From assembly GCA_963796335.1 (NCBI GenBank), contig CAWCLG010000006.1, forward strand, positions 132,540 through 196,539: 64,000 nt of DNA. The letters run 5' to 3'. The DNA is from an uncultured Gemmatimonadales bacterium (GTDB lineage Bacteria; Gemmatimonadota; Gemmatimonadetes; Gemmatimonadales; GWC2-71-9). Both the position numbers and the translations under genes were made by a program. Below, in pieces: positions 36,901-56,241 of this stretch; position 1 is the first letter of the stretch; every line of letters starts with the position of its first letter. The notes under the pieces were generated by a model. That model was not told where the DNA came from. It searched no databases and saw only the letters and a list, made by a program, of their open reading frames with translations.

Positions 36901-37824
36901 ATGCCTCAGCAGCCAAGGCTGTTGGTCGGTTCCTCTCCGTCGATGGGCAGGGCGCTGGAACAGTGCGCCCGATTCGCACGGGGCCGGAATCCGGTCGTCC
37001 TCATCGGCGCCCCCGGCACCGGCAAGACGCTGCTCGCCGAGCACATCCACCTGCTCTCCGGGCGGACCGGGGAGTTCGTGAAGCTGTCGGCGTCGCACAT
37101 CCCGCCCAACCTGGAGCTGGCCCAACTCGGCGGGCACACGAGGGGTGCCTACACCGGGGCGGACCGCGATCAGCCCGGATTGCTGGAGACGTCCCATCGC
37201 GGAACGTTCTTTCTCGACGAGCTGGGCAACGCGTCGCCGATGGTGCAGGAGATCCTCCTCCAGGTGATCGAGGAGGGCACCATCCGACGGGTTCGGGAGA
37301 TCCGACCCCGGCCCCTCGACGTCCGCTTCGTCTTCGCCACCAATGCTCCGTTGCAGGCGCTGGTGGAGAAGGGCCAGTTCCGGCGGGATCTCTACGACCG
37401 TCTGGGTTTCTGCAAGATCGCGGTGCCGTCGCTGGCGGATCGGCGCGAGGACATCGAAGCCCTGCTGCGGTCGATGCTCCAACGCGAGGCCGAGGTCGCG
37501 GGGCTGGCCGAGCCGCCACGACTCGAATCCCGGCTGGTGGACTGCCTCATCGCGGCGCCCTGGAAGGGGAACGTCCGGGAGCTGGAGAACCTGTGCAAGT
37601 ACCTGGTCATTTTCGGGGATCTCGGTCGCCCGCTCGACATCGGGGACCTCCCCTACGACTTCGCCGCCTCGCTGGGCGCCATCCTGCGCCACCAGCACGA
37701 AACCCCCACGCTGGCCCACCGCGCTCGGGAAGCACTCGCCGCGACGGGCGGTGACAAGTCGGCCGCGGCGAGAATCCTCGGCATCAGCCGCACGCACATT
37801 TATCGGCTGCTCAAGCCGGCGTGA
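36901..37824 (+). CDS. receiver-less sigma54 enhancer-binding protein (AAA+ plus Fis-type HTH), bEBP-1
   Basis: Walker A GAPGTGKT, GAYTGA variant of the GAFTGA loop, Walker B FFLDELG, RELEN, and the C-terminal HTH AARILGISRTHIYRLL. No N-terminal sensory domain; 307 aa. Confidence 0.8.
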   Translation: MPQQPRLLVGSSPSMGRALEQCARFARGRNPVVLIGAPGTGKTLLAEHIHLLSGRTGEFVKLSASHIPPNLELAQLGGHTRGAYTGADRDQPGLLETSHRGTFFLDELGNASPMVQEILLQVIEEGTIRRVREIRPRPLDVRFVFATNAPLQALVEKGQFRRDLYDRLGFCKIAVPSLADRREDIEALLRSMLQREAEVAGLAEPPRLESRLVDCLIAAPWKGNVRELENLCKYLVIFGDLGRPLDIGDLPYDFAASLGAILRHQHETPTLAHRAREALAATGGDKSAAARILGISRTHIYRLLKPA

Positions 37825-37826
37825 TA

Positions 37827-37898: not shown

Positions 37899-37912
37899 GA
37901 CGCGAGGCATAC

Positions 37913-37999: not shown

Positions 38000-38005
38000 T
38001 CGTTA

Positions 38006-38160: not shown

Positions 38161-38162
38161 CC

Positions 38163-38208
38163 GTAACCTGTCCGCCGTGACGTTACACCGACCGCTGTAA
38201 CATGTTAC
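38163..38208. promoter_or_regulatory. candidate upstream activator sequence: four GTAAC/GTTAC half-sites including the perfect palindrome GTAACATGTTAC
   Basis: GTAAC at 38163, GTTAC at 38182, GTAACATGTTAC at 38197-38208. Centred about 70-110 bp upstream of the -24/-12 candidate. Confidence 0.4.
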
Positions 38209-38274
38209 GCGGCCGCTCTCCGCGGTCCCTCGCCCAAACTCCATCCATTCATTCACTTGCCTCCAGCGACACAA

Positions 38275-38291
38275 CCGGCACGTCGTCTGCC
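38275..38291 (+). promoter_or_regulatory. candidate sigma54 (-24/-12) promoter for the gsp operon
   Basis: ccGGCACGtcgtCTGCc has GG-N10-GC spacing and matches 9 of 11 consensus positions of TGGCACG-N4-TTGC. The GC lies 36 nt upstream of the gspE ATG. Confidence 0.5.
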
Positions 38292-38325
38292 TTGCGAAGA
38301 GCCGACCTCACCAGCCGGTGCCTCC

Positions 38326-44983: not shown

Positions 44984-45441
44984 GGGCCGTCCTGCTGGTC
45001 GCGATCGCGGCGCCGCTGGCTGTGTCGGCCGTACTCCTGGCGGCACCCGTGATTCCCGATCCGGTGCTGCCGCCGCGTCGCGCCCTGCCTGCTCCTTCGA
45101 GACTTCCGGCCGAACCGACCGCCACGTCGCTGGAGCGCGGGCTCGCCCGGCCGCTGTTCCGTCGGACCCGCAAGCCGGCTCGACTCGCGTTCGATCCCGA
45201 CCGGGCGGCTGGGGAGGTCGCGATGGAGCCTTCGGCCCCGCGGCCCCAGCTCTCGCTGTCGGGAATCGTCTGGAGTCCCCGGCCGATCGCCGTGCTGGAG
45301 GGGCTGCCCAATATCACGGGCTCGACCGTGATGCGGACCGGGGATCGCACCGCGGGCGTGTGGGTGAAGCGGATCGGACGGGAGAGCGTCACGCTGGAAG
45401 GGTTCGACACCACCTGGGTGCTGAAGCTGAGGAATCCATGA
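44980..45441 (+). CDS. T2SS-associated bitopic protein (GspC/GspN/PilP position)
   Basis: GTGA overlap with the upstream stop. N-terminal TM helix, Pro-rich linker, and a small C-terminal beta domain (GVWVKRIGRESVTLEGFDTTWVLKL). Confidence 0.5.
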   Translation: MRAVLLVAIAAPLAVSAVLLAAPVIPDPVLPPRRALPAPSRLPAEPTATSLERGLARPLFRRTRKPARLAFDPDRAAGEVAMEPSAPRPQLSLSGIVWSPRPIAVLEGLPNITGSTVMRTGDRTAGVWVKRIGRESVTLEGFDTTWVLKLRNP

Positions 45442-46889
45442 ACCAGTACGGGAAGCTCGCGCTCGCGACCTGGCTGCTGGCCGGTCTGGCCCAGACCCCG
45501 GCGCGGGCCCAGGCGCCGGTGACGACCAATGGGGACAGCGTCCGGGTCCGATTCCTCGATACCGACCTCCGGGCGGTGATCCAGGCCGTCGGGAGTCACC
45601 TGCCCAAGCCGGTGATCGCGGGCGGGGTGCCCGAGGTCAAGGTCTCGCTGGAGACGCCGGAGCCGGTCAACCGCGAGACGCTCGCGACCCTGCTGGCGGG
45701 GCTGGTGAGGACCCACGGCCTCGAGTTCACCGAGGACTCCAGCTTCTTCCGCATCGGTCCCCCGAGTCCCGCCGCTGCTCCGGCGGCCGCGCAGCCGGCG
45801 GGCGGCGCCCAGGCGGCGAACGTGCGGCTCTTCGTGATCCGGCTCCGCCACGCACGCGCGTCGGACGTGGCCGCGACGGTGAACCTGCTGTTCGGCCGGG
45901 GAGGGGAGTTCACCGGGGCGACGGGGCTCTCGGGCGGTACGCTGGGGGACGAGCTGGCCCGGCCGGACATGCTGCCAGGCGGAGCGGTGCCGCAGCCGCC
46001 CGACTCGGGGAAGCCGCCCGGCGCCAACCTCACCGGCCCGGTCGCGATCGTGCCCGACCAGCTCACCAACTCGCTCCTGGTCCGCGCGGCCGAGGCCGAC
46101 TTCGCGGTGCTGCGCGAGGCGGTGACCCAGCTCGACATCCGTCCGCTCCAGGTGCTGATCGAGGTGCTGATCGTCGAGGCGAGGCACGACCGCCGGTTCT
46201 CCCTCGGCGCCGACCTGCTGGTGCCGCCGCAGGACATCGGCGACGGCACGATCGGGGGAACGATCACCGGCGGCGGGCTGGGCGACCTGGTGATCCGGCT
46301 GATGAACCTGGGCAAGGGCGACATTGACGCGGTGCTGCGGACGGCGCAATCGAAGGGCGACGTGGAGATCGTCTCGCGGCCGGTGCTGCTGGCGTCGAAC
46401 AACACCGAGGCCCGGTTCCTAGTGGGCTCGCAGCGGCCGTTCATCTCGGTGAGCCGCTCCCTCCCGACCGACAGTCCCTCGCGGGACCAGGTGGTGCAGT
46501 ATCTCGACGTGGGGACCAAGCTCAGGGTGCTGCCGACGATCAACCAGGACGGCTACGTCTCGCTGGTGGTGCAGCAGGAGATCAATGCCGCGACGGGAGA
46601 GACCCAGTTCGACGCGCCGGTGATCTCCACCCGGGAGGCATCGACCCAGGTGCTGGTGCGCGACGGACAGACGATCGTGATCGGCGGCTTGCGCGACCTG
46701 CAGCGGGACCGGAGCCAGTCGGGGGTGCCGGTGCTGTCGGGCATTCCGATCGTCGGCGGGCTGTTCGGGACCACCCGGCGGAGCAGCACGGCGACTGAGC
46801 TCTATCTGTTTCTGACGCCGCGGATCCTTCGCACCGACGAGGACGCCGCGAATGTGACCTCACCCCGGCTTCCGGATATCAAGCAATGA
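45438..46889 (+). CDS. gspD: secretin GspD
   Basis: ATGA overlap with the upstream stop. Signal peptide, N0/N1-like domains, and a secretin core (VLIEVLIVEA...VPVLSGIPIVGGLFG...ELYLFLTPRIL). Confidence 0.88.
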   Translation: MNQYGKLALATWLLAGLAQTPARAQAPVTTNGDSVRVRFLDTDLRAVIQAVGSHLPKPVIAGGVPEVKVSLETPEPVNRETLATLLAGLVRTHGLEFTEDSSFFRIGPPSPAAAPAAAQPAGGAQAANVRLFVIRLRHARASDVAATVNLLFGRGGEFTGATGLSGGTLGDELARPDMLPGGAVPQPPDSGKPPGANLTGPVAIVPDQLTNSLLVRAAEADFAVLREAVTQLDIRPLQVLIEVLIVEARHDRRFSLGADLLVPPQDIGDGTIGGTITGGGLGDLVIRLMNLGKGDIDAVLRTAQSKGDVEIVSRPVLLASNNTEARFLVGSQRPFISVSRSLPTDSPSRDQVVQYLDVGTKLRVLPTINQDGYVSLVVQQEINAATGETQFDAPVISTREASTQVLVRDGQTIVIGGLRDLQRDRSQSGVPVLSGIPIVGGLFGTTRRSSTATELYLFLTPRILRTDEDAANVTSPRLPDIKQ

Positions 46890-47845
46890 GCGCCGTCACC
46901 GAGGTACGCGCCACGGAAGTGATCGCGATTCCCCTGCTCATCGGATGCTCTCCCTCGATGCAGCTGGCCCGCAGCCGGGTGGAGCGGTTCGCCCGCAGCC
47001 GCCTTCCGATCCTGCTGGTGGGGCCGACCGGCACCGGGAAGGATCTGGTCGCCCGGCACCTGCACTGGGCCAGCGGCAGGGCGGGTGCGATGGTGGACGT
47101 GAACTGCGGCGCCCTCCCGCGCGACATGGTCGAGAGCCTGCTGTTTGGCCACCGGCGGGGAGCTTTCACCGGGGCCATCGAGAGCACCTTGGGGATGATC
47201 GCTCGGGCGGACCGGGGCACGCTTTTCCTGGACGAGTTGTCGAGCCTCCCGGTCGAAGGCCAGGCCAAGCTGCTGCGCGTGTTGGAGACGGGTGAGGTCT
47301 TGCCGCTGGGCGCGTCGACCAAGCAGGTGATCGACTTCCGGCTGGTCGCCGCCGCGCACGAGGACATCGCGGATCGCGTGGGCTCGGGGCTGTTCCGCCG
47401 GGATCTCTTTCACCGGGTGGCAGCGCTGCGGATCGACCTGCCGCCACTGGCCTCACGGCGAGAGGACATTGCCCTGCTCGCCCAGCACTTCGCATCGGCC
47501 CACGGGCGGATGATCGGGGAGGAGGGCATGGTGGTGCTGCGACAGGCGCACTGGCCCGGAAACGTACGCGAGCTGCGGGCGGTGGTGGATCGGGCGGTGC
47601 TGCTCTCCGACGCGCCCGTCCTCGACGCGCAGGTCCTGCTCGACGGCAGGGACCTCGGCCTCGCCGACGCGCTGCAGCGGGAGCCCGCGCGCGAGCTGCT
47701 GGAGCTGTGCCGGGTGCACGGGGGCCGCGCCGACACCATCGCCCAGGCACTGGGCGTCAGCCGGGCGACGCTATTCCGCCGACTCCGTGCGCTGGGGATC
47801 TCGCTGATGAGTCTCAGGGTCTCACGGAGTCTTGAGACTCGGTAA
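46886..47845 (+). CDS. receiver-less sigma54 enhancer-binding protein (AAA+ plus HTH), bEBP-2
   Basis: ATG 46886 overlaps the gspD stop (ATGA). Walker A GPTGTGKD, GAFTGA, LFLDEL, NVRELR, and the HTH IAQALGVSRATLFRRL; 319 aa with no sensory domain. Confidence 0.82.
   Translation: MSAVTEVRATEVIAIPLLIGCSPSMQLARSRVERFARSRLPILLVGPTGTGKDLVARHLHWASGRAGAMVDVNCGALPRDMVESLLFGHRRGAFTGAIESTLGMIARADRGTLFLDELSSLPVEGQAKLLRVLETGEVLPLGASTKQVIDFRLVAAAHEDIADRVGSGLFRRDLFHRVAALRIDLPPLASRREDIALLAQHFASAHGRMIGEEGMVVLRQAHWPGNVRELRAVVDRAVLLSDAPVLDAQVLLDGRDLGLADALQREPARELLELCRVHGGRADTIAQALGVSRATLFRRLRALGISLMSLRVSRSLETR
47809..47840. repeat. R1: 32 bp triple-GTCTCA element (copy 1), inside the 3' end of bEBP-2
   Basis: gagtctcagggtctcacggagtcttgagactc. 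27 of 32 positions are identical to R2, with identical 8 and 10 nt spacing of the three GTCT motifs. Confidence 0.85.
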
Positions 47846-47997
47846 GACCGTGGAGTTGCCGCGTTCAAGGATGGAGCCGTGGCAAACATCCGGGTGGAAA
47901 CCCATGCGCCTCGTGGCCTGCACGGTAACGTGCAGATCAAGAGGAAGGGTGGGGAGATCGTTAACAAGCATATCGATCCCTGAGCGTGGAGCCAGTT

Positions 47998-48363
47998 ATG
48001 CCTGAGTATACGATCAGCTTCGAGGTGAAAGAGGCTAACACCATCGAGCTGCCCAACCAACGGTACGCCGCGGGGCGATACCGCGTTGAGGCAGATGAGA
48101 AGGGTGGCGTGGATGTCTTCGGCAACCGAGAAGGCCTGCTTTATCTTGCCGAGGTCTTGGTGCGATGCGCACTAGGTGATCACAAGGCCGGATTCCACGT
48201 CCACATTCCCAGGAAGGGAGTGGTAAGCCTGGTGTATCTGGAGAACCCGAACTCACCGTCTACTCAGCCTCAACTGGTGTGGATGGCTAGCCTATCACAG
48301 AAGGCTTCGCTTGGGCGACCCAGGGGCGCTGCCTTCGGAACCGTGAGAGGGCGGCACTGGTGA
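47998..48363 (+). CDS. small cytoplasmic protein resembling polymorphic-toxin immunity proteins (Imm32-like by recollection, unverified)
   Basis: GGAG lies 6 nt before ATG 47998. The motif FGNREGLLYLAEVLVRCALGDHKAGFHVH fits this call. Sits in a low-GC context. Confidence 0.45.
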   Translation: MPEYTISFEVKEANTIELPNQRYAAGRYRVEADEKGGVDVFGNREGLLYLAEVLVRCALGDHKAGFHVHIPRKGVVSLVYLENPNSPSTQPQLVWMASLSQKASLGRPRGAAFGTVRGRHW

Positions 48364-48890
48364 GGAACGATCTGCGACAGCCAGAGCTTTCCTTGCGCCA
48401 AGGAGCTCTGCACCGCGTGAAGTACAAAAGTAGACTCTTCCGATTGCCAACAAGGGAGCCCGGCTAGCCGTGGCTGGGCTTTCTCACGCCCCGTTTGGTG
48501 TCCCCTGTGTGCGGAACAATCAGGGGCTGGAGTTGAGCCGACAGAAGGATGTGAGCGACCGATACGGAGAGACGCTGATCGCCCTTCTTGATCGCGAGTC
48601 GGTCTCCCTCTACGAGGGAACAAGCTTCACAGGAGAGGAGTCCCTGATCCACGCGAACGCGCTCTTCGCTTGGCTGACCAGCCCTCGATCTGGGAGCCTG
48701 CCGGACCTGCTGAACGTCACATCAGGGCAGCAGCAACCGGTTCAGGTGACCAAGAGTACAAGCGCAGCAAGGCCCCTTAAGTGAGGTGCTCGGTGGAGGG
48801 ACCGGCGAGACCAAGTCCCCCGTTCGACGTCGCGCGTGGAGGAGAGTGGTATTGACTTCTGGCTCCTGGTTCGACCCCTGAGGCGAAGGC

Positions 48891-49391
48891 ATGGGCAATG
48901 AGCCTGGACGGCCCATGGCAGACCGCTCGCCGCAGTCATTCGGCGGGCTCATTCGGGCCATTGGGATACTCGAAATCGTTGGCGGGGTTGCGGGGTGCGC
49001 CGCGGTCGCTTGGTTCTACGTGGGTGGCCATCAAGAGGCCATGCCAGGCGGCGATGTACAACTTGCGCTTCTGCCCTTTGGAACACTTACAACCGTCGGC
49101 TTCGCACTCCTGCGCGCACGCCAAGCGGGGCTTTGGGGTTCCCTTGTGCTGCAGCTCTCTCAAGCCCTGGCCTGGACGGCGGGAGAGACGATGTGGAGGT
49201 TCTCGGCTGGACCATTTCTATCTCTTACGCTTCTCAATGACACAACCTCGATCTTCGCTGGGTGGGACACGAGCTTCGGTTTTGGGCGCGTTCCCGAAAA
49301 CGCTCCTGGATCTGTTTCGTTGAATCTGATCCCGGTCTTTATTGCGTTAGCGCTGTGGCGACACCTGAGACGAGGCTTGCCGTCCTCGTAG
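48891..49391 (+). CDS. hypothetical four-TM membrane protein (possible orphan immunity protein)
   Basis: 166 aa ORF with four hydrophobic helices (LIRAIGILEIVGGVAGCAAVAWFYV, LALLPFGTLTTVGFALL, LWGSLVLQLSQALAW, LNLIPVFIALALW). Start uncertain (48891 or 48915). Confidence 0.4.
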   Translation: MGNEPGRPMADRSPQSFGGLIRAIGILEIVGGVAGCAAVAWFYVGGHQEAMPGGDVQLALLPFGTLTTVGFALLRARQAGLWGSLVLQLSQALAWTAGETMWRFSAGPFLSLTLLNDTTSIFAGWDTSFGFGRVPENAPGSVSLNLIPVFIALALWRHLRRGLPSS

Positions 49392-50007
49392 GCAAGACAC
49401 GTGTCACAGTGTAAGTAACTGAGTAGTCATAGGCCGGCCGACTATTTGGTGCGGTTATGAGGCCGAGATTGTAGGATAAACTTCTCCCCAAGAGACCGCC
49501 TCAAGGCTCGCATTCGCGGCACAATGCGATTTCTGGGGGCGAGCTTCTTCCGGAACGGCCATGTTTATTCGATGTGTTGTCTCGGAACGGGATAGTCGTT
49601 CTAACCAGCCTATGGGCATCTTCACGGCGCTCATAGGCTGGGGCGCGAAGGCAGGCTCGCACCCCATGAACTCGAATGGTTCCACAACACCGAACAGTGG
49701 TTCAACGAGCGATTGGAACGCCCGGATCAACTATCATGGTCGGGGCGGCCAGATGCACTGCCCCTCGCAATTACATGGCTAAGAATGTCGGCTGGCTAAC
49801 CTTCGATGTCGCTGAGGTCCGTAGGGCGTTGGCGGATGCCAAGATGCTCTCGTGGGGAGAGGTTATCCCGACATTCGGATCTAGGTCGCTGAGTTCGGGT
49901 GTGGATCGTTCCAATGGCCGTATGCCTTCGGAGTCGCCTTCATACCAGAGCATTGTATGGACGTGAGAACGTGGTCTTTCTGGATGTGGGGCGCAATAGC
50001 ACTGGTC

Positions 50008-50112
50008 TTTACTTCATCGTCTTGTGAGCAGTGAGCCGCCAGGGATCAATAGCCGTAGGCAGCTCGCCTCGGATGTCTTTGCGTTTCATCCTCGTCCCCC
50101 AATTCAGGGATC
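50008..50112. repeat. X1: about 100 bp direct repeat, copy upstream of the HExxH gene
   Basis: Aligns by eye with 50872-50967 at roughly three quarters identity (cttgtga.cagtg...taggc.gctcgc.tcggat...ttcatc.tcgtccc...ttcag.g.tctc). Confidence 0.6.
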
Positions 50113-50168
50113 TCCTTCTCGAATGAGCACGCGAGCCCTTAGAGCCGCCGCCTGCAAGAGGCCATAGA

Positions 50169-50807
50169 GTGGTTGTCAACCTATCCAAGGTGTCGTATTC
50201 GGTCGTGTCTTGGGTTCGGGTACCGCTGCGATGGGCACTGCTGAATACCCTATTCCTCTTGTCGTCCAAGACGGTGATTGGGGGCATCGAAGTCATCGAT
50301 GTGGCCGAAGTGGATGTCGATCAAACTCTGCGTCGGCTTCGCGAAGCGCTAGACGTCATAAGGCGGACCGACGTCCGTCGTTATGAGCGCATGAGACGAG
50401 ACCTGCGGCGCATTGTCCTCATGAAGGCGGGTGTGCCTCAATTTGCATCCGAGGTAGGCGCATGCCTCATCAGGAGTGCTTATGTACGGGAGAAATCTGC
50501 CGAGGCAGTAGCCACAACGTTGGTACACGAGGCTGTGCACGCCCGTATTCATCGCCGTGGCGTAGGATATGGGCCTGGCCTGCGCATTCGCGTGGAGGAA
50601 GTCTGTGTCAAGCAGCAGATCGACTTCGCAAGGGCCCTGGGGAACCCTGAGATACTCAGTCATCTGACACAGGTGCTGAAGGCGCCGCTATGGGTGCTAG
50701 CACTGCAACACGAGGACACCATCGCAGCCCTGCGGAGTTTAGGAGTGCCGGAATGGATGCTTCGCCTGTATGACAAAGTCGCCTTCGCCATGCGACGCCA
50801 TACCTAG
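50169..50807 (+). CDS. hypothetical HExxH-motif protein (putative zinc metallopeptidase fold)
   Basis: 212 aa ORF (GTG start) with TLVHEAVHARIHRRG. No signal peptide and no recognised family. Low GC. Confidence 0.45.
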   Translation: MVVNLSKVSYSVVSWVRVPLRWALLNTLFLLSSKTVIGGIEVIDVAEVDVDQTLRRLREALDVIRRTDVRRYERMRRDLRRIVLMKAGVPQFASEVGACLIRSAYVREKSAEAVATTLVHEAVHARIHRRGVGYGPGLRIRVEEVCVKQQIDFARALGNPEILSHLTQVLKAPLWVLALQHEDTIAALRSLGVPEWMLRLYDKVAFAMRRHT

Positions 50808-50871
50808 GCAGCGCTGACGGCCTTGGCGTCCTCACACAGGAGGGCCCCGGCGCGCAACATGCCCGTTCGTA

Positions 50872-50967
50872 GTTGCTTCGTATCTTGTGAACAGTGGCAG
50901 GATCCGCAGTCCTAGGCGGCTCGCTCGGATCCCTTTCTCTTCATCTTCGTCCCTGCTTCAGAGTCTC
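50872..50967. repeat. X2: about 100 bp direct repeat, copy downstream of the HExxH gene, abutting R2
   Basis: See X1. Its 3' end runs into the triple-GTCTCA element. Confidence 0.6.
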
Positions 50968-50992
50968 AAAGTCTCACGTAGTCTCAAGACTC
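50961..50992. promoter_or_regulatory. R2: 32 bp triple-GTCTCA element (copy 2), candidate UAS for the rhs promoter
   Basis: gagtctcaaagtctcacgtagtctcaagactc ends in the palindrome AGTCTcaAGACT. Centred about 97 bp upstream of the -24 GG. Confidence 0.45.
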
Positions 50993-51071
50993 CATGAGAC
51001 GGTCGCACGATCCGGTCATCCTCCCCGCCTCCAAAAACTGTTGAAACCAATGACTTAGGTGCCCAGCCCTG

Positions 51072-51088
51072 GCGGCATGGTCACTGCT
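51072..51088 (+). promoter_or_regulatory. candidate sigma54 (-24/-12) promoter for rhs
   Basis: gcGGCATGgtcaCTGCt has GG-N10-GC spacing and the same CGGCAYG-N4-CTGC form as the gspE candidate. The GC lies 35 nt upstream of the GTG 51122 start proposed here. Confidence 0.45.
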
Positions 51089-51121
51089 CTCCCCTTCAGC
51101 ATCCCCGCTCCGGAGAGCCAT

Positions 51122-54100
51122 GTGTTCCGCACCGCCCACCGCTGCGCTGCCGCGCGGCTTCTGTTCGTCGCCCTCGCCACGCTCCTGCTCACGTCCGGTC
51201 CCGCTGCTGCGCAGTTCAGCACTCAGGCCCTAGGCGGCCTCGAGATTACTCCGGACTCGTCCACAATGATCGTGGCCCCGAATACGAACGGTCACCAGAT
51301 CGAGTTCCTCGCGCGCAATGAGCTGCTGACCACAGGAACCTGGTCATTCAGCTGCGTCGCGACGGGCAACGTGAGCTGTGTCTCCTTCCCCTCCGGGGCT
51401 ACCTACCCTTCGGGTGGAGGCGGTGAGCTGCTCGTCACCTTCAACGCGACGGCTGGTGGCACCGGCCGCATCACGTTGACGGCCTCCCCGGGAGGAGAAA
51501 CCGGCTCGGTCATCGTCGACATCGCCGAGCCGGGTGCGCCGGCCGTCACGCTGCAGAACCACAACCGGGACAACGTCGACCGTTCGATGTGCCTGACCGC
51601 GGGGGCCGGTGACGGTGCCGCGTGGAGCTGTGGCGACCTGGTGATCACTCACGCGATGCCGACCTACACCACGATGAACAAGGGACGGAACCTCACGCTG
51701 ATCCACAATTCGGCGACGACGCATCCGATGCCGCCGATCGCCGCGGTCATCAATCAGACCGGGCGCACGATCATGCAGGGCATCAGGGCGCAGGTATGGG
51801 TGGGCGCCACGCCGGTCCTACTTCGCTCAGTGGTGTATGACCCGTGGTCCACCGGGGTCGGCAGCTCCAGGCAAGTGGTGGTCGACTTCAATGCGGACAC
51901 GTTCTCGACCGGCGCCTATCCCATGGAGTTTCGAGTCGAGAACGTGTACCCAACGCTGCCGCCCTTTATCACGACGGTGAAGGACACCTTGCTGATCGTC
52001 AATCGAACCCGCAGCGAACTGGGGGCGGGTTTCGGAATCGCCGGCGTGGAGCAACTCTTCCTCAATCAGCCGGTGGGCACCGCACTGGGCCATCTGATGT
52101 GGGTCGGCGGGGACGGGTCGGCCAAGCTCTACCGGAAACTCAACGCCACGACATGGGTCGGGCCACTGGGCGGGTTCCAGGATACCATCTCGTTTGCATC
52201 CTCGAAGTACACCCGCACCATGAAGGGTGGTACCAAGGTCGAGTTCGATGCTACCGGCCGCCACACCGCGACCATCAACCGTGCTGGACAGACCACCACC
52301 TTCACCTGGACATCGACCCCGTCGGGTCCGCGCCTGACCGGCATAGCCGTGCCGCCGACGACGCAGGGCGGATCGTACACACTGGTCTATGAGACCACAG
52401 GCAGCCGCCTGCTCGATCTGATCCGCGACCCCGCGAACCGCACCCTGAACCTCACGATGGCGGATGGTCGCCCTACGATACTGATCGATCCTGACAATCT
52501 TCAAACCGAGTTCGGGTGGGACGTCACCAACCGGCGGATCACCTCACGCAAGAATCGGAAGGGTTGGACTACTCGCTACGAGTACTCCAAGGGCCTCGCC
52601 TGGGGCAGCAGAGTGACGAAGGTGACTGCCCCGATCGGCCGTACCGTCGATACAGAAACGGCTGCCACCGTGTTCGAGCCCTGGAACGACAAGGGGCTGG
52701 GTATTGCACCAACCAACCAGGATGCCGTCGTCGTTGCTCAGGTGGAGACTCGCATCCTCGGCCCGCGAGCGGGCGTCAACGACAATGCGGATTTCCTGGT
52801 CAACAAATGGGGTGCGCCCACCAGGGCAGAGAATGCGATCGGGGCGGTGACCACGTACGCCCGTTCCAGCGCCTCATTCCCGGCCTTGATCACGAGGATC
52901 ACCCATCCGAACGGCAGGATCACCGATCAGACCTACAACAACCGGGGCAACCTCACCAAGGTCAGGGACGATGTGAACCCGATCACGGGTGATCCCCAGA
53001 CTCGGGTGACGGTGTACGAATATCCTAGCTCCGGTCTCAACCGCGACTACCCCACCGCCGTCTGGGACTCACTCGCCTCGCCGACCAGGACCGAGTACGT
53101 CTACAACTCCATGGGCTTGCCCGACACCGTGCGCTCACCCGGCGGGCACCGCACCGGGTTCACCTACAAGACCAGCGGCGCGCTGAAGGGGCTGATGATC
53201 CGCAGCACGGAGGTCAGCGTCGAAACCTGGGAGGAAACCGCCACGGCGCAGGATACCGACTTCCAGTGGCGGAACCACGAGCGGCGCTTCGACTACGATG
53301 CCAAGGGCAACCTGCAGGCCGACACGTCAGCCGTCGGTGCCGTGACGTCGTTCAGTCGCGACGCCATGGGGCGGGTGACCAACGTTTACGACCCGCTCAA
53401 GACCAGGATCGAGCGGGTCTACGACCCGATGGATCGCGTGACCCAGACGAAGCACTATACCACGACGACGGCACATCCGATCGTCACCAACCCCCTGGCG
53501 GGCTGTATCGCCAATCAGGCGGTCTGCTCCGACAATACGGTGGCATGGGATCCACTGCCGAACCCGGTGAACACGACCTACAATCATGGAGCCATGAATC
53601 TCGAGTCGGTTCTGGATCCCCGATCGGTGCCCCGCACCTACGTGTACGACACGCGGGGACTCGTGATCGAGGAGAAGGACGATTACAACAAGTCCCGCCT
53701 GGCCTTCTATAACGAGGCCGGTCTGATCACGTCCTCCCGGTCCCGCACCAACCGTGAGGTCCGCTTCTACTACGACGCCGCAGGCCGGCGGACCGCCATG
53801 GCCTATGGCGCGGTGCCGAGTCCGGTGCCGGGTTCGGGGGCAAGCGTTCCGGGCGACAGCATCCGGTACACGTACGACAACATGGACAATCTGCTGACTG
53901 TCACGAACCGAGAGGGAACTATAACTCGCACGTACATGCGAAACGGGCTGGTCAAGCAGAAGACCATGAATTTTGTCGGCACGATTCCAAATGACGTCGT
54001 CACCTATGTGTACGATCGTGACGGCGTACTTCGGACTGCGACCCGCGGCTCGGACGTCGTGACATACAACTATCAGGCGGCGACCAGGAACCTCAGCACC

Positions 54101-55774
54101 ATGGTTGTCCAGCTAGGTGCCCCGGCCAGCATCACTCGGACCTTTACGTTCGACTGGGACTCGCTCGGCCGGACCCGCCGGATCACTTATCCCACCAACG
54201 CGTCCCACCCTCTGACCGTGGACTACCGGTACGACAGGGCGGGAATTCTCCGGCGCCTGGTGTCCAAGCAGACCGGTGCCGCCAGTACCATTCTGAACTT
54301 CACCTATCGCAACGTCGCGGTAGATCCCATCGGACGCATCATCCGCGACAGCCTGACCTGCTCGCCGAGCTCGGCTCCCGGTCCGTGCGAGGGCACGACC
54401 CCGATCCGGGTGGCGAACTCATACAGCCGGATGGGAGCCCTGCTGAGACAGGAGTATCGGCGCGGAGGGAGCCGGCAGGTCGATTCGATGAGCTATGACG
54501 CGTCGGGAAACATGAAGTTTCGGGTCCAGGAGGATCTTGGGCACATCCACACGTTCACGCTGGATGCCGGCGCGCACAACCGGCTGGCCAGCTTCGTACG
54601 CTCGGAGCTCGGCAATACCTCCCGTGCAATCACGTACAACCTTGATGGCGCTCGTCTGCGCGAAGTACGGGACCCTTGGAACGAAAACGTCCCCGAGGAG
54701 CGATACTACCACTATGATGGCCTCGGGCGCATGAGCGGCACGGGTGAATACCTCTTGGTCGGTAGCTCGTGGCAGTTCTCGGATCGGGAGACCGCATGCC
54801 AGTACGATGGCGACGGGCAAATGATCGGGCCGTGTGATAACGGGTCCCATTTCCTGCTGTTTGACGGGGACAATACGACTGGCACCACTGATGCCAATTC
54901 GCATGGCTGGCGGTTCTTCCACGCCCCAGGAATCGATTCACCGCTGCTGGGATACCTCCGCGGACCCAGCAACCGCCTCTACCTGTGGGTGACCGACGGC
55001 AGGGGCCGAGAGTTTGCTGTGGCGGACACGCTAGGGCGGCGGAATTCGTCGGAGGACGGGATTAGCCAGCTAGGTGACTGGCGATATGCTGGTGGCACAA
55101 AGGCCTCGAACAGCTTTGATGCTGACCGCTTCGGTTCGCCTCAGGCGCCGAAGCTGTCGTTCTTCCGGAACCGAGCGTATGATCAGGAGACCGGGCGGTG
55201 GACCCAGGAAGACCCGATAGGATTGGCTGGTGGGGTCAATCTCTATCAGTTCAATGGGAACGATCCAGCCTCTTATACCGATCCTTTCGGGCTATGTGTT
55301 CCTTGGTGCACGGCGTTGATCGGTGCAGCGGTCGGTGGGGGTGGCGCAGCAATCGCAACGCTGGCCTACAACGCGATGAACGACCGTCCGTTGGGCGAGA
55401 ACGTGGGACGCAATGCTCTCGTCGGCGGGGCTGCCGGTGGAGCCATCGGGCTCGGAGTTGGACTCTTCAGCGGAGCGGGAGCCGCTGTGGCGACTGGTGC
55501 GGCTCCGGTGGTAGGCAAGGGTACTGAACGTCTGATAGGCATGCTCGAGCAAGCCGGTCCCTCGATGGATGCAAGAATCAGGGCGGTTAGTGAGTATCTA
55601 CCGGCCGGCCAGAAAGCGGTGATGACCGCTCTTGAAGGTGGCTCCCGAATGCTGTCGGGGGGAGCAGGCTCCCGAGCTACTCAGGTAATCCTTAACGGCG
55701 ATGGAAGTACAATCGTGAAGAAGTTCAATACGGCAAAGGAAGCCTTTGAGGTGGTTAAGGAGATTAGGCCGTGA
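51122..55774 (+). CDS. Rhs/YD-repeat polymorphic toxin with Sec-type signal peptide and unrecognised C-terminal domain
   Basis: Many YD repeats (YxYDxxGxL) and a core ending in DPIGLAGGVNLYQFNGNDPASYTDPFGL. Start set at GTG 51122 (SD GGAGAG 5 nt upstream), giving the signal peptide FRTAHRCAAARLLFVALATLLLTSGPAAA|Q. The longest ORF starts at 51059. Confidence 0.88.
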   Translation: MFRTAHRCAAARLLFVALATLLLTSGPAAAQFSTQALGGLEITPDSSTMIVAPNTNGHQIEFLARNELLTTGTWSFSCVATGNVSCVSFPSGATYPSGGGGELLVTFNATAGGTGRITLTASPGGETGSVIVDIAEPGAPAVTLQNHNRDNVDRSMCLTAGAGDGAAWSCGDLVITHAMPTYTTMNKGRNLTLIHNSATTHPMPPIAAVINQTGRTIMQGIRAQVWVGATPVLLRSVVYDPWSTGVGSSRQVVVDFNADTFSTGAYPMEFRVENVYPTLPPFITTVKDTLLIVNRTRSELGAGFGIAGVEQLFLNQPVGTALGHLMWVGGDGSAKLYRKLNATTWVGPLGGFQDTISFASSKYTRTMKGGTKVEFDATGRHTATINRAGQTTTFTWTSTPSGPRLTGIAVPPTTQGGSYTLVYETTGSRLLDLIRDPANRTLNLTMADGRPTILIDPDNLQTEFGWDVTNRRITSRKNRKGWTTRYEYSKGLAWGSRVTKVTAPIGRTVDTETAATVFEPWNDKGLGIAPTNQDAVVVAQVETRILGPRAGVNDNADFLVNKWGAPTRAENAIGAVTTYARSSASFPALITRITHPNGRITDQTYNNRGNLTKVRDDVNPITGDPQTRVTVYEYPSSGLNRDYPTAVWDSLASPTRTEYVYNSMGLPDTVRSPGGHRTGFTYKTSGALKGLMIRSTEVSVETWEETATAQDTDFQWRNHERRFDYDAKGNLQADTSAVGAVTSFSRDAMGRVTNVYDPLKTRIERVYDPMDRVTQTKHYTTTTAHPIVTNPLAGCIANQAVCSDNTVAWDPLPNPVNTTYNHGAMNLESVLDPRSVPRTYVYDTRGLVIEEKDDYNKSRLAFYNEAGLITSSRSRTNREVRFYYDAAGRRTAMAYGAVPSPVPGSGASVPGDSIRYTYDNMDNLLTVTNREGTITRTYMRNGLVKQKTMNFVGTIPNDVVTYVYDRDGVLRTATRGSDVVTYNYQAATRNLSTMVVQLGAPASITRTFTFDWDSLGRTRRITYPTNASHPLTVDYRYDRAGILRRLVSKQTGAASTILNFTYRNVAVDPIGRIIRDSLTCSPSSAPGPCEGTTPIRVANSYSRMGALLRQEYRRGGSRQVDSMSYDASGNMKFRVQEDLGHIHTFTLDAGAHNRLASFVRSELGNTSRAITYNLDGARLREVRDPWNENVPEERYYHYDGLGRMSGTGEYLLVGSSWQFSDRETACQYDGDGQMIGPCDNGSHFLLFDGDNTTGTTDANSHGWRFFHAPGIDSPLLGYLRGPSNRLYLWVTDGRGREFAVADTLGRRNSSEDGISQLGDWRYAGGTKASNSFDADRFGSPQAPKLSFFRNRAYDQETGRWTQEDPIGLAGGVNLYQFNGNDPASYTDPFGLCVPWCTALIGAAVGGGGAAIATLAYNAMNDRPLGENVGRNALVGGAAGGAIGLGVGLFSGAGAAVATGAAPVVGKGTERLIGMLEQAGPSMDARIRAVSEYLPAGQKAVMTALEGGSRMLSGGAGSRATQVILNGDGSTIVKKFNTAKEAFEVVKEIRP

Positions 55775-56127
55775 CCAAGCATGCAGGGCACTCGCACGAG
55801 CGTGCCAGAGCCATCTGGAGATTCGCGGAGTCGGAAGAGGATGGCGAGACGTGGCTTCGTAATCCAGCCTTGTTACAAGGCTACGTTGATTACGAATCTC
55901 GTAGTGATGATGGTAATAGAATCTGGCGAAGAATTATGGTGGTGACCAAAGGCTGGCTGGAAAGCCAAGTTCAAAGCGTGCGCAAGGGAACTACTTCCCC
56001 TCTTTGGATTGCACTGCCGGCCTTGGTTGTCCTACCGGACGCGACTGGAGAAGAACTAAAAGCTGCGGTAGACGCGGTAATCGGACAGGGCGGCCTGGAC
56101 CCCTACTCGACGGCCCTATCCACTTAA
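55771..56127 (+). CDS. candidate cognate immunity protein
   Basis: GTG 55771 overlaps the rhs stop (GTGA), with AAGGAG 7 nt upstream. 118 aa. This is the lowest-GC stretch of the locus. Call is based on position only. Confidence 0.5.
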   Translation: MTKHAGHSHERARAIWRFAESEEDGETWLRNPALLQGYVDYESRSDDGNRIWRRIMVVTKGWLESQVQSVRKGTTSPLWIALPALVVLPDATGEELKAAVDAVIGQGGLDPYSTALST

Positions 56128-56241
56128 AGCAGTCGCTGAAGACCTTTGGCTAGCATCACATGGGCAGAAGCAGGGTTGAAGTCCCAGGTCCGCAACCCTC
56201 TCTGCCCTGGAGCCTCCGGCCCCCCGCGGTATTTTACTCGC

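What the first reader, a model, noticed from the sequence alone, without database searches (positions are those of the whole stretch)
50961..51125. rhs has its own -24/-12 candidate, an IHF-like AT-rich spacer and a better downstream start codon
- gcGGCATGgtcaCTGCt (51072-51088) has the GG-N10-GC spacing and shares the CGGCAYG-N4-CTGC form of the gspE candidate.
- The GC is 35 nt from GTG 51122, compared with 36 nt at gspE.
- GTG 51122 is preceded by GGAGAG and yields a canonical signal peptide. The longest-ORF start (51059) would place the promoter inside the gene.
- The triple-GTCTCA element lies about 97 bp upstream.
- An AT-rich stretch (ccaaaaactgttgaaaccaatgactta, containing AACCAAtgacTTA, one mismatch from WATCAAnnnnTTR) lies in between.

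Two promoters of the same atypical form at the same geometry are hard to explain by chance. By a rough composition-based estimate, I would expect about one such match by chance across both strands of the window.
Basis: partly seen in the sequence, partly recalled or inferred. Interest (0 to 1): 0.65.

Follow-up and report, generated by a model that had tools for sequence, protein, structure and literature searches.

The report
Sigma-54 enhancer-dependent promoter of rhs toxin gene
The short motif in front of this Rhs toxin gene is very probably a real sigma-54 promoter with its own upstream enhancer. The same layout recurs in front of every related rhs gene found, so it is a well-supported but conventional regulatory element in an unusual secretion-toxin island.

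Summary
- CGGCATGgtcaCTGCT lies at 51073-51088, with the GC 35 nt before GTG 51122.
- GGAGAG lies at 51112-51117.
- AGTCTCA occurs three times at 50962-50986.
- The A/T-rich spacer holds AACCAATGACTTA.

**The single site is not statistically special.**
- The window has 28 equally good consensus matches, against about 33 expected.

**Comparison with other loci settles it.**
- Seven independent rhs homologue loci each carry a GG-N10-GC site, 35-36 nt before the start codon in six and 53 nt in one.
- In a blind alignment of eight rhs upstream regions, GG.A.G.....TGC are the only invariant columns.
- A matrix trained only on non-window sites ranks 51074 first and the gspE site (38277) second among about 128,000 window positions.
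- Homologue N-termini, in-frame stops and a conserved Shine-Dalgarno support GTG 51122 as the start.

**The GTCTCA element is a candidate enhancer.**
- It is a 43-nt palindromic element, duplicated at the 3' end of the adjacent activator gene, which carries GAFTGA and lacks a sensor domain.
- In a sister strain, that second copy sits exactly 70 nt before another sigma-54-type rhs promoter.

**The IHF site is plausible but unproven.**

**Verdict:** This is a new member of a known kind.

The parts
46886..47845 (+). Gene for a sigma-54 activator (bEBP-2, 319 aa). It has an AAA+ sigma-54 interaction domain with GAFTGA and a C-terminal HTH, and no N-terminal sensory domain. Its start overlaps the gspD stop.
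   Evidence: Pfam Sigma54_activat 2.9e-54 plus AAA_lid_14 and a weak HTH_8. The GAFTGA motif is encoded from 47159. Best solved-structure relatives are the NtrC-family, FleQ, ZraR and PspF AAA+ domains. No NCBIfam equivalog passes its cut-off.
47809..47851 (+). Copy A of the 43-nt GTCTCA palindromic element. It overlaps the last 12 codons and the stop of bEBP-2. In this genome it is an orphaned enhancer with no sigma-54-like site downstream.
   Evidence: Direct repeat D4, 79% identical to 50961-51003. In sister strain L024 the same copy lies exactly 70 nt upstream of CGGTACGatcgCTGCT, which is 35 nt before the GTG of another rhs. Homology between the window and L024 ends exactly at 47851.
50961..51003 (+). 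Copy B of the 43-nt element, the candidate upstream activating sequence of rhs. It consists of GAGTCTCA followed by a 30-bp imperfect palindrome, GTCTCACGTAGTCT-ca-AGACTCCATGAGAC (50971-51000). Its centre is about 113 bp upstream of the inferred transcription start.
   Evidence: D4, I1. The gap to the GG of the -24 box is 70 nt, identical to the copy A cassette in L024. Analogous repeats occupy the same position in L016, L017, L018, L021 and L022 and in L023 (read from the sequence).
51031..51057 (+). A/T-rich spacer (67% A+T in a 69% G+C genome) with the IHF-like 13-mer AACCAATGACTTA at 51045-51057. It is a possible DNA-bending site.
   Evidence: WATCAANNNNTTR with at most 1 mismatch occurs 5 times in the window against 3.0 expected, and one of the five is here. 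A CAA-N4-TT core recurs at -29 or -30 from GG in the window rhs, L024 rhsA and L016 promoters, with a weaker match at the window gspE promoter. Protein binding is untested.
51073..51088 (+). Sigma-54 type promoter core CGGCATGgtcaCTGCT, with the -24 GG at 51074-75 and the -12 GC at 51086-87. The inferred transcription start is about 51098-51099.
   Evidence: 9 of 12 matches to TGGCACG-N4-TTGCW. Rank 1 of about 128,000 window positions (17.4 bits) with a matrix trained only on sites from other loci. Its positions are the only invariant columns in the alignment of eight rhs upstream regions.
51112..51117 (+). Shine-Dalgarno GGAGAG, 4 nt before GTG 51122.
   Evidence: GGAG lies 6-8 nt before the start in L016, L017, L021, L023 and L024 rhsA.
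51122..55774 (+). The rhs coding sequence from the revised GTG start (1550 aa). It has a 30-residue Sec-type signal peptide (51122-51211, MFRTAHRCAAARLLFVALATLLLTSGPAAA|Q), a rare N-terminal domain of about 430 aa, a YD/RHS repeat shell, the Rhs-associated core, and a short C-terminal tip.
   Evidence: Translation. RHS_repeat 6.6e-22. YD_repeat_2x and Rhs_assc_core both pass their cut-offs. Homologue N-termini align to this start. The hydrophobic core is at residues 13-23.
55771..56127 (+). 118-aa ORF overlapping the rhs stop, a presumed cognate immunity gene.
   Evidence: Position only. No family match. This is an inference.
38276..38291 (+). Sister sigma-54 type promoter CGGCACGtcgtCTGCC, 36 nt before the gspE ATG at 38326, which is the first gene of the T2SS operon.
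   Evidence: Rank 2 in the cross-validated scan at 15.0 bits. The gspE genes of L018 and L022 carry TGGCACactccCTGCC and TGGCACactctCTGCC.
38163..38212 (+). GTAAC/GTTAC palindromes, including the perfect GTAACATGTTAC at 38197-38208. They are the candidate enhancer for the gspE promoter, 65-115 bp upstream of its -24 box.
   Evidence: Read. Conserved in sister strains L025 and L026 while the adjacent 8-mer array varies. Binding is untested.
36901..37824 (+). bEBP-1, a second sigma-54 activator without a sensor domain (307 aa, GAYTGA variant, HTH_8). It lies immediately upstream of the gspE control region.
   Evidence: Pfam Sigma54_activat 3.8e-44 and HTH_8 2.3e-07. The GAYTGA motif is encoded from 37144.

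Best explanation
The rhs gene is transcribed from its own sigma-54 (RpoN) dependent promoter.

**Proposed mechanism**
- **Promoter binding:** sigma-54 holoenzyme binds the -24 GG (51074-75) and the -12 GC (51086-87) as a closed complex.
- **Activator binding:** an AAA+ activator binds the repeated, palindromic 43-nt GTCTCA element (50961-51003), about 113 bp upstream of the start site. The activator is most probably bEBP-2 (46886-47845), which carries GAFTGA, lacks a sensor domain and is encoded at the end of the neighbouring T2SS operon.
- **DNA looping:** looping across the 70-nt A/T-rich spacer brings the activator to the polymerase. An IHF-like bend may assist this.
- **Open complex and start site:** ATP hydrolysis then opens the promoter. 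Transcription starts at about 51098-51099.
- **Translation and export:** the 23-24 nt leader carries GGAGAG. Translation starts at GTG 51122 and gives a Sec signal peptide.

The T2SS operon (gspE, 38326) has a promoter of the same form with its own palindromic enhancer. The secretion machine and the Rhs toxin are therefore both wired to sigma-54.

**Shown versus inferred**
- Shown by sequence and comparison: the conserved promoter core, the geometry, the start codon, the duplicated enhancer-like element and the activator's motifs.
- Inferred: sigma-54 dependence, which activator binds which element, the transcription start, and the role of IHF.
For: 1. **Conserved position.** Seven rhs-homologue upstream regions from other contigs, fetched by protein homology only, each have a GG-N10-GC site matching 9-10 of 12 consensus positions. 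In six the GC lies 35-36 nt before the start codon:
   - L016 AGGCATGaggaGTGCT, 36 nt.
   - L017 AGGTACGctccCTGCA, 36 nt.
   - L021 CGGCATGggacCTGCC, 35 nt.
   - L022 TGGCACGcagaCTGCC, 35 nt.
   - L023 CGGCACGgcgcCTGCC, 35 nt.
   - L024 rhsA CGGTACGatcgCTGCT, 35 nt.
   - L018 TGGCACGtcagATGCC lies at 53 nt.
   - The chance rate of such sites is about 2.6e-4 per position, or about 0.008 per locus for a 30-nt zone.
   - Only 2 of 33 control genes in the window have one anywhere within -120 to +60.
2. **Blind alignment.** In the MAFFT alignment of the eight upstream regions (48% mean column identity), the only invariant columns are G51074, G51075, A51077, G51079, T51085, G51086 and C51087.
3. **Cross-validation.** A matrix from 8 non-window sites ranks 51074 first (17.4 bits) and 38277 second (15.0 bits). 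The next hit scores 13.3 bits.
4. **Activators.**
   - Activator genes with intact GAFTGA or GAYTGA lie next to both promoters.
   - In L016, L023 and L024 an activator gene directly precedes the rhs promoter.
5. **Enhancer-like repeats.**
   - Each locus has its own repeated or palindromic motif at -160 to -78 from GG: GTCTCA, TTCTCA, GCGACC, TGCGAA, GAAAT, GTGACAAGTTC and GTGATCAGTTCGA.
   - The 43-nt element occurs twice in the window.
   - In L024 each copy sits exactly 70 nt before a sigma-54-type rhs promoter, although the two spacers are only about 45% alike (my own ungapped count on the sequences).
6. **No alternative promoter.** No sigma-70-like promoter was found in 47700-51400.
7. 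**Start codon.**
   - Homologue signal peptides align to GTG 51122.
   - In-frame stops lie just upstream in L016, L017 and L018.
   - A Shine-Dalgarno is conserved in six of the eight rhs regions.
Against: - There is no experimental evidence of any kind.
- No rpoN gene lies in the window (no RpoN-box match), and the rest of the genome could not be read.
- The site deviates from the textbook consensus, with C instead of T at -26 and CTGC instead of TTGC at -12.
- Within the window alone, equally good consensus matches occur at the chance rate.
- The sites used to train the matrix were picked by eye in the short zone before each start codon.
- Copy A of the enhancer-like element has no promoter behind it in this genome. 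It coincides with a recombination breakpoint, so the element could have a second role or a different one.
- Which of the three activators in the window binds the element is unknown.
- The IHF-like core is poor or absent in most of the other promoters.
- Read-through from upstream genes is not excluded as an additional source of rhs mRNA.
Confidence: 0.85

Rival explanations
1. Chance resemblance. The GG-N10-GC match is fortuitous, and rhs is transcribed by read-through or from an unrecognised promoter of another sigma factor.
For: Sites of equal consensus quality occur 28 times in the window against 33 +/- 5.5 expected. The relaxed pattern occurs at the chance rate.
Against: Eight of eight independent rhs upstream regions carry such a site, seven of them at 35-36 nt from the start. 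These positions are the only invariant alignment columns. The site ranks first in a scan with a matrix that excludes window sequences. No sigma-70-like promoter was found.
Confidence: 0.03
2. The conserved block is functional but is not a sigma-54 promoter. It could be an operator for another DNA-binding protein, or part of a conserved mRNA leader made from a promoter further upstream.
For: Conservation extends beyond the core. GCATCCC(C) in the leader and TTAG 15 nt before GG recur in several loci. L024 rhsA has a GGGGAGGGG-cat-CCCCGCCCC hairpin in the leader.
Against: The invariant positions are exactly the sigma-54 determinants: GG, A, G, then TGC, at the canonical 10-nt spacing. GAFTGA activator genes are adjacent. 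Enhancer-like palindromes sit at canonical distances. No Rfam family matches here.
Confidence: 0.06
3. The 43-nt GTCTCA element is primarily a recombination or cassette-boundary sequence rather than an activator-binding enhancer. The two copies mark the ends of a swapped 3.1-kb segment.
For: The two direct copies flank the strain-variable, low-G+C segment 47852-50960. Homology to sister strain L024 breaks exactly at the end of copy A, at 47851. The circular contig L026 is linearised at 47809/47810.
Against: In L024 both copies lie exactly 70 nt before a sigma-54-type promoter despite dissimilar spacers. Most of the other loci carry unrelated repeats at the same place. The dyad symmetry and helical-turn spacing (8-10 bp) are typical of binding sites for dimeric HTH proteins. 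The two roles are not mutually exclusive.
Confidence: 0.12
4. The rhs ORF starts at GTG 51059 or ATG 51077, so the motif is coding sequence.
For: Both codons are in frame, with no stop before 51122. 51059 gives the longest ORF.
Against: Neither codon has a Shine-Dalgarno. The homologues begin with the signal peptide at the position of 51122. The corresponding upstream stretch is closed by stops in L016, L017 and L018. The ATG inside GGCATG is out of frame in L016. An extra 15 or 21 residues would precede the signal peptide.
Confidence: 0.05

Closest known systems
PspF and the pspA promoter of Escherichia coli (sigma-54, an activator without a regulatory domain, UAS plus IHF site)
   Same: The activator consists only of an AAA+ domain with GAFTGA and a C-terminal HTH (319 aa here; PspF is hit at 8.9e-47). 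A dyad enhancer lies roughly 80-130 bp upstream of a -24/-12 promoter, with a candidate bend site between them. The PspF system layout is my own established knowledge.
   Different: The protein scores below the PspF equivalog cut-off (204.7 against 443.55 bits), so it is not a PspF orthologue. No pspA-like antagonist is seen. The target is a toxin gene and a secretion operon, not a membrane-stress operon.
RpoN/Sfa2 control of the Pseudomonas aeruginosa H2-T6SS and its vgrG/toxin islands (PMC8855297), and by analogy VasH in Vibrio cholerae
   Same: A sigma-54 activator encoded inside a secretion-system cluster coordinates the machine and its cognate antibacterial toxins (abstract).
   Different: Sfa2 has an N-terminal GAF domain, whereas the activators here have none. 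The machine here is a T2SS (GspD/E/F/G/K), not a T6SS. The Rhs protein has a Sec signal peptide instead of a PAAR or VgrG link. There are two activators with two different enhancers.
NifA-dependent nifH promoters (CTGG-N8-TTGCA class with an intervening IHF site)
   Same: GG-N10-GC core with deviations from TGGCAC/TTGC, for example GGTACG...CTGCA in L017 and GGTACG...CTGCT in L024. A UAS lies more than 100 bp upstream, with an IHF-type bend between. The nifH details are my own established knowledge.
   Different: The activator, enhancer sequence and biological function are all unrelated.
Sec/T2SS-class RHS polymorphic toxins (Zhang et al. 2012, PMC3482391)
   Same: Signal peptide, RHS repeats, a variable C-terminal tip and a downstream small ORF. 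An Imm32-like orphan gene is nearby.
   Different: That survey lists no signature neighbourhood genes for this export class. Here a complete T2SS cluster is linked to the rhs gene in at least five loci: the window, L018, L022, L023 and L024/L025.

Membership tests
Sigma-54 (-24/-12) promoter | GG and GC dinucleotides separated by exactly 10 nt | tested here: met
   GG 51074-75 and GC 51086-87. The same holds in all seven other rhs upstream regions and in three gspE regions.
Sigma-54 (-24/-12) promoter | Match to the extended consensus TGGCACG-N4-TTGCW | tested here: met
   9 of 12 positions, deviating at -26 (C), -21 (T) and -15 (C). By itself this quality occurs at the chance rate in the window (28 against 33).
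Sigma-54 (-24/-12) promoter | Conservation of the core in orthologous or paralogous upstream regions | tested here: met
   These are the only invariant columns of the 8-sequence alignment. The site ranks first in the cross-validated matrix scan.
Sigma-54 (-24/-12) promoter | A cognate activator (bEBP) with an intact GAFTGA loop is available | tested here: met
   bEBP-2 has GAFTGA and bEBP-1 has GAYTGA. A third GAFTGA protein is encoded on the minus strand near 7440.
Sigma-54 (-24/-12) promoter | Upstream activating sequence about 80-150 bp upstream, bound by the activator | tested here: inconclusive
   A 43-nt dyad element is centred about 113 bp upstream, with conserved 70-nt spacing. Analogous repeats are found in the other loci. 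Protein binding cannot be tested here.
Sigma-54 (-24/-12) promoter | The genome encodes RpoN | not testable with these tools
   The window has no RpoN-box match. The rest of the genome is not available.
Sigma-54 (-24/-12) promoter | Transcription start about 12 nt downstream of the GC, and dependence on rpoN | not testable with these tools
   This needs 5'-RACE or dRNA-seq and mutants.
IHF binding site | Match to WATCAANNNNTTR with an A/T-rich 5' flank | tested here: inconclusive
   12 of 13 at 51045-51057, with AAAAA upstream. The window has 5 such matches against 3.0 expected.
IHF binding site | Conservation of the site between enhancer and promoter in related loci | tested here: inconclusive
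   The best IHF-like 13-mer starts at -29 or -30 from GG in 5 of 11 promoters. A CAA-N4-TT core is seen in three of them, with a weaker match at the window gspE promoter. All sites outside the window have 3 mismatches.
IHF binding site | The organism encodes IHF subunits | not testable with these tools
   The organism was not identified, and cluster look-ups returned no names.
Rhs / YD-repeat polymorphic toxin | RHS/YD repeats and the Rhs-associated core ending in the DPxGL-type motif | tested here: met
   RHS_repeat 6.6e-22. YD_repeat_2x scores 61.3 bits (cut-off 15.8) and Rhs_assc_core 51.6 bits (cut-off 32.5). The sequence reads ...DPIGLAGG...DPFGL.
Sec signal peptide | Basic n-region, hydrophobic h-region and an AxA-type cleavage site directly after the initiator | tested here: met
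   MFRTAHRCAAAR / LLFVALATLLL / TSGPAAA|Q. The 11-residue hydropathy peak is 2.97 at residues 13-23. Signal peptides are present in homologues P0001-P0005, P0007 and L018. No dedicated predictor was available.

The most novel reading that the evidence does not exclude
**Proposed system**
- The promoter is one module of an undescribed toxin-delivery system. A dedicated T2SS exports Sec-dependent Rhs toxins that share a rare N-terminal domain of about 430 aa.
- Both the machine and the toxins are hard-wired to sigma-54 through activators that have no sensor domain.
- Each rhs cassette carries a fixed-geometry control unit: enhancer, 70 nt, -24/-12 core, 35 nt, start codon.

**Variation between lineages**
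- The enhancer sequence differs between lineages, as do the HTH sequences of the three adjacent activators that could be read.
- This would insulate the cassettes from one another.

**Possible mobility**
- The whole 19.5-kb island (window 36772-56230) also exists as a circle or a tandem repeat in another sample.
- It may therefore be mobile.
Probability: 0.3. Interest if true: 0.7.

Novelty: new member of a known kind. Interest (0 to 1): 0.45.

Why it matters
- **Annotation.** The result corrects the rhs start codon to GTG 51122 rather than 51059, which shows the protein to be a Sec substrate.
- **Regulation.** It places an Rhs toxin and a neighbouring type II secretion operon under sigma-54 and activators encoded in the island. 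This coupling of machine and toxin has so far been documented for type VI systems (PMC8855297).
- **Testable material.**
  - The comparative set gives a clean, fixed-geometry promoter family: enhancer, 70 nt, -24/-12 core, 35 nt, start.
  - The enhancers differ between loci, which makes the set suitable for testing how activator and enhancer specificities change together.
  - It also allows a test of whether a T2SS exports Rhs toxins.
- **Limits.** As a promoter prediction it is conventional. The wider system is the more interesting part, and it is only inferred.

Tried and rejected
- **Exact look-up of bEBP-2.** It returned only a 1.6-kb contig that ends at the gene.
- **Metagenome-contig scan with the Rhs N-domain alignment.** It gave only two loci. 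L019 was too weak to use.
- **P0003.** No DNA was available. P0007 was not fetched.
I rejected it as evidence because the pattern was derived from the two sites it counts. The relaxed pattern and the consensus-match census are at chance.
- **A sigma-54 site behind copy A in the window.** The only GG-N10-GC there is TGGAAAcccatgCGCc, 44 nt after the element, which is weak. No high-scoring matrix hit lies there.
- **Other scans.**
  - The sigma-70 and terminator scan of 47700-51400 found no promoter-like site.
  - Rfam found only tRNA-Phe.
- **NCBIfam.** It placed neither activator in a named equivalog.
- **Organism identity.** It could not be established, because the cluster look-up returned no names.
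- **Leader hairpin.** I considered the CTCTCC (51088-93) / GGAGAG (51112-17) inverted repeat as a hairpin masking the Shine-Dalgarno. I set it aside because the inferred start site lies downstream of CTCTCC.


Full report
**1. What is in the sequence**

- gcGGCATGgtcaCTGCt lies at 51072-51088. GG is at 51074-75 and GC at 51086-87, exactly 10 nt apart.
- GGAGAG lies at 51112-51117, and GTG at 51122 is in frame with the long ORF.
- Earlier in-frame starts are GTG 51059 and ATG 51077, the latter inside the GGCATG box. An in-frame stop lies at 51056.
- Translation from 51122 reads MFRTAHRCAAARLLFVALATLLLTSGPAAA|QF. This is a basic n-region, an 11-residue hydrophobic core with a hydropathy peak of 2.97, and an AxA site.
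- AGTCTCA occurs at 50962, 50970 and 50980, and an inverted GTCTCA at 50995-51000.
- The spacer 51031-51057 is 67% A+T and contains AACCAATGACTTA.
- The gspE site CGGCACGtcgtCTGCC is at 38276-38291, with its GC 36 nt before ATG 38326.

**2. Chance**

It was derived from those two sites, so this says little.
- The relaxed form GGCAY-N6-TGC occurs at the chance rate, 6 against 6.3.
- I counted sites with GG and GC in place and at least 9 of 12 matches to TGGCACG-N4-TTGCW. There are 28 in the window against 33 +/- 5.5 in Markov simulations.

On window evidence alone the site is unremarkable. The question had to be settled by comparison with other loci.

**3. Context**

- **T2SS operon.** It runs from gspE (38326) through gspG, gspF and gspK to the secretin gspD (44436-46889).
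- **Activator genes.** The operon is preceded by a 307-aa sigma-54 activator (bEBP-1, 36901-37824, GAYTGA). It is followed, with overlapping stop and start codons, by a 319-aa activator (bEBP-2, 46886-47845, GAFTGA, WPGNVREL). Both consist of an AAA+ domain and an HTH, with no sensory domain. Neither reaches any NCBIfam equivalog cut-off. Their nearest solved relatives are the NtrC-family, FleQ, ZraR and PspF AAA+ domains.
- **Low-G+C stretch.** After bEBP-2 the G+C content drops to 54-64% until about 56140. This stretch holds an Imm32-like ORF, further small ORFs, the rhs gene and a 118-aa ORF overlapping its stop. The rhs gene has RHS/YD repeats and the Rhs-associated core.

**4. The GTCTCA element is a duplicated 43-nt palindromic unit**

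The repeat finder reports a 43-nt direct repeat, 79% identical.
- Copy A, 47809-47851: GAGTCTCAGGGTCTCACGGAGTCTTGAGACTCGGTAAGACCGT.
- Copy B, 50961-51003: GAGTCTCAAAGTCTCACGTAGTCTCAAGACTCCATGAGACGGT.

Each contains a 30-bp imperfect dyad with the half-site GTCTCAYGNAGTCT. That half-site occurs 4 times against 1.35 expected. Copy A overlaps the last codons and the stop of bEBP-2. Copy B ends 70 nt before the GG of the rhs site.

**5. Comparative evidence for the promoter**

*How the loci were found.* The N-terminal 430 aa of the Rhs protein belong to a rare family. Two protein searches found 8 proteins in the 5.8-billion-sequence database, and a metagenome scan found one further usable locus. 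I fetched the DNA around them, and around two proteins found through the cluster look-up.

*Sites upstream of rhs homologues.* Every rhs homologue with upstream DNA carries a GG-N10-GC site just before its start codon.

| Locus | Site | GC to start (nt) |
|---|---|---|
| window | CGGCATGgtcaCTGCT | 35 |
| L021 | CGGCATGggacCTGCC | 35 |
| L023 | CGGCACGgcgcCTGCC | 35 |
| L022 | TGGCACGcagaCTGCC | 35 |
| L024 rhsA | CGGTACGatcgCTGCT | 35 |
| L016 | AGGCATGaggaGTGCT | 36 |
| L017 | AGGTACGctccCTGCA | 36 |
| L018 | TGGCACGtcagATGCC | 53 |

*Sites upstream of gspE.* In L018 and L022 the rhs gene is divergent from gspE. On the other strand, the gspE genes carry TGGCACactccCTGCC, 38 nt from the start by my count, and TGGCACactctCTGCC. 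These parallel the window's gspE site.

*How unlikely this is by chance.*
- The proteins are 39-67% identical, so unconstrained intergenic DNA should have been randomised.
- The eight upstream regions align at only 48% mean column identity. The only invariant columns are window positions 51074, 51075, 51077, 51079, 51085, 51086 and 51087, that is GG.A.G.....TGC.
- At a background rate of 2.6e-4 per position, a site in a 30-nt zone before a given start codon has a probability of about 0.008. Eight of eight is far beyond chance.
- Among 33 other genes in the window, only 2 have such a site anywhere in a 180-nt zone.

*Cross-validation.* A log-odds matrix built from the eight sites outside the window, scanned over both strands of the window, ranks 51074 first (17.4 bits) and 38277 second (15.0 bits). 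The next hit scores 13.3 bits.

**6. Comparative evidence for the enhancer**

*Repeats at a common position.* Aligned on the GG, each locus has its own repeated or dyad motif between about -160 and -78.
- Window: GTCTCA at -111, -103, -93 and, inverted, -79.
- L021: the related TTCTCA, seven direct copies at 8-10 bp steps plus two inverted.
- L016: GCGACC at -101, -92 (inverted) and -78.
- L017: TGCGAA at -111 (inverted), -101 and -79.
- L023: GAAAT twice direct and once inverted, just after the activator's stop codon. This was read and was not picked up by the hexamer count.
- L018 and L022: long palindromes (GTGACAAGTTC...GAACTTGTCAC and GTGATCAGTTCGA...) shared by the divergent gspE and rhs promoters.

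*Activator genes next to the rhs promoter.* In L016, L023 and L024 an activator gene directly precedes the rhs promoter. The HTH sequences of the three activators that could be read differ, as do their enhancers. That is consistent with co-variation, but three cases are too few to show it.

*The sister strain L024/L025.* This is the strongest single observation. The strain is 95-97% identical to the window over the aligned stretches.
- Copy A is followed, after exactly 70 nt, by CGGTACGatcgCTGCT. The GTG of a different rhs gene (rhsA) lies 35 nt further on.
- Copy B has the same 70 and 35 nt geometry in front of the orthologue of the window's rhs.
- The two spacers are only about 45% identical by my own ungapped count.
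- Homology between the window and L024 ends exactly at 47851 and resumes at 50771.

In the window genome, rhsA has therefore been replaced by a 2.9-kb variable segment, and copy A is left without a promoter.

**7. Start codon**

- Homologue N-termini are signal peptides that align to GTG 51122. P0001 has the same 30-residue length before the conserved Q.
- In L016, L017 and L018 an in-frame stop lies 12-51 nt upstream of the start, so no longer ORF exists there.
- GGAG lies 6-8 nt before the start in six of the eight rhs regions.
- The ATG inside GGCATG is out of frame in L016.
- GTG 51059 and ATG 51077 have no Shine-Dalgarno.

**8. IHF**

- WATCAANNNNTTR with at most one mismatch occurs 5 times in the window against 3.0 expected. 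One of the five lies in the 70-nt spacer.
- In 5 of 11 promoters the best IHF-like 13-mer starts at -29 or -30 from GG. A CAA-N4-TT core is present in three of them (window rhs, L024 rhsA, L016), with a weaker match at the window gspE promoter. All sites outside the window have 3 mismatches.

A bend site is plausible but unproven. I could not check whether the organism has IHF.

**9. Mechanism**

*Known chemistry.* By the established behaviour of sigma-54 promoters, the holoenzyme binds GG at -24 and GC at -12 as a closed complex. It needs ATP hydrolysis by an enhancer-bound AAA+ activator, which contacts sigma-54 through its GAFTGA loop after the DNA loops.

*Applied here.*
- The inferred start site is about 51098-51099 and the leader is 23-24 nt.
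- The activator is most likely bEBP-2, on the basis of adjacency in four loci and of the enhancer overlapping its own 3' end.
- Because the activators have no sensory domain, control must come from their own expression or from an unidentified antagonist, as with PspF and PspA.

All of this is inference. No sigma-70-like promoter was found nearby, and read-through is not excluded.

**10. Comparison with known systems**

- Architecturally this is a textbook enhancer-dependent promoter of the PspF/pspA or NifA/nifH type.
- Functionally, the closest analogue is RpoN/Sfa2 control of the P. aeruginosa H2-T6SS and its toxin islands (PMC8855297). There the activator has a GAF domain and the machine is a T6SS.
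- Rhs toxins with signal peptides are a recognised Sec/T2SS export class with no signature neighbouring genes (PMC3482391). Here a full T2SS cluster is linked to rhs in at least five loci.
- Sigma-54 as a controller of the cell exterior and of secretion is a known theme (PMC3162934).

**11. Verdict**

As a feature it is a new member of a known kind.

The wider picture goes beyond the finding and is only inferred:
- rhs cassettes linked to a T2SS and wired to sigma-54;
- enhancers that differ between lineages;
- an island that appears as a perfect 19.4-kb circular contig in another sample.

Noticed in passing
window 36772-56230; L026 (= L020) whole contig: The whole island (bEBP-1, T2SS operon, bEBP-2, variable segment, rhs and the immunity-like ORF; 19.46 kb) appears in metagenome ERZ25039511 as a 19,387-bp contig. 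That contig is an exact circular permutation of the island: window 47810-56230 is joined to 36772-47808, with one base missing at the ends and no chromosomal flank. The junction joins 56229/30 to 36772/3 with only microhomology. It is either a free circle or a collapsed tandem duplication. No integrase was recognised among the ORFs I scanned. In sister strain L025 the island is integrated at the same chromosomal site.
   Followed up: partly
window 47852-50770 vs L024 10525-15240: This segment varies between strains. The window and L026 carry an Imm32-like ORF (47998-48363), a 166-aa ORF (48891-49391) and a 212-aa ORF with a weak HExxH-type hit (50169-50807). The sister strain carries another complete rhs gene and a small ORF instead. 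The left breakpoint is exactly the end of the 43-nt enhancer-like element.
   Followed up: partly
window 37827-37899 and 38006-38150: Two tandem arrays of an 8-mer lie in inverted orientation: GGCAGGCG-type, about 7 copies, and CTGTCCGC, 18 copies at 99% match. They flank a long hairpin-forming palindrome (GTCATCCCGAGCGCAGCGAGGGATCTT...AAGATCCCTCGCTGGCGCTCGGGATGAC, about 37915-37998). All of this sits between bEBP-1 and the gspE enhancer. Copy number varies between strains: 16 perfect copies in the window, about 10 in L026, and degenerate in L025. The gspE promoter and the GTAAC palindromes stay constant.
   Followed up: partly
L018 3187-3512; L022 396-695: In two distant loci the rhs homologue and gspE are divergently transcribed from one intergenic region. 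It has a sigma-54-type site on each strand and shared long palindromes between them, forming a bidirectional enhancer arrangement.
   Followed up: partly
L021 770-860: The enhancer-like array is expanded to nine copies of (G)ATTCTCA, seven direct at 8-10 bp steps and two inverted. The motif is one base different from the window's GTCTCA. No activator gene lies on that contig; the upstream neighbour is a GIY-YIG/DUF2461 gene on the other strand.
   Followed up: no
window 51122-52400 (Rhs residues 1-430): The N-terminal domain of the Rhs protein has no Pfam or NCBIfam match and only 8 relatives in the 5.8-billion-protein collection. It has an invariant NHNRDNxDRSxCLT...AAWxCGDL block. Where context is visible, all relatives are next to T2SS or activator genes. 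It may be a T2SS-targeting or anchoring domain.
   Followed up: no
window 51088-51121 and the equivalent leaders in L017, L023, L024: The short leader contains a recurring GCATCCC(C) motif. A TTAG lies exactly 15 nt before the GG in the window, L017 and L024 rhsA. L024 rhsA has a GGGGAGGGG-cat-CCCCGCCCC hairpin. The function is unknown.
   Followed up: no
window about 6721-8535 (-): A third GAFTGA-containing ORF (604 aa in the mechanical ORF list), with the motif encoded near 7440 on the minus strand. That makes three sigma-54 activators in 64 kb. It was not analysed further.
   Followed up: no
window 28231-28246 (-): The third-best hit of the cross-validated matrix is TGGCACAATCGATGCG at 13.3 bits. 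It lies near the start of the gene at 28239 but points away from it, with no minus-strand gene downstream. It is probably a chance hit.
   Followed up: no
window 36901-37824; L023 6038-7021: bEBP-1 and the L023 activator carry GAYTGA instead of GAFTGA, in front of promoters whose -12 element is CTGC rather than TTGC.
   Followed up: no
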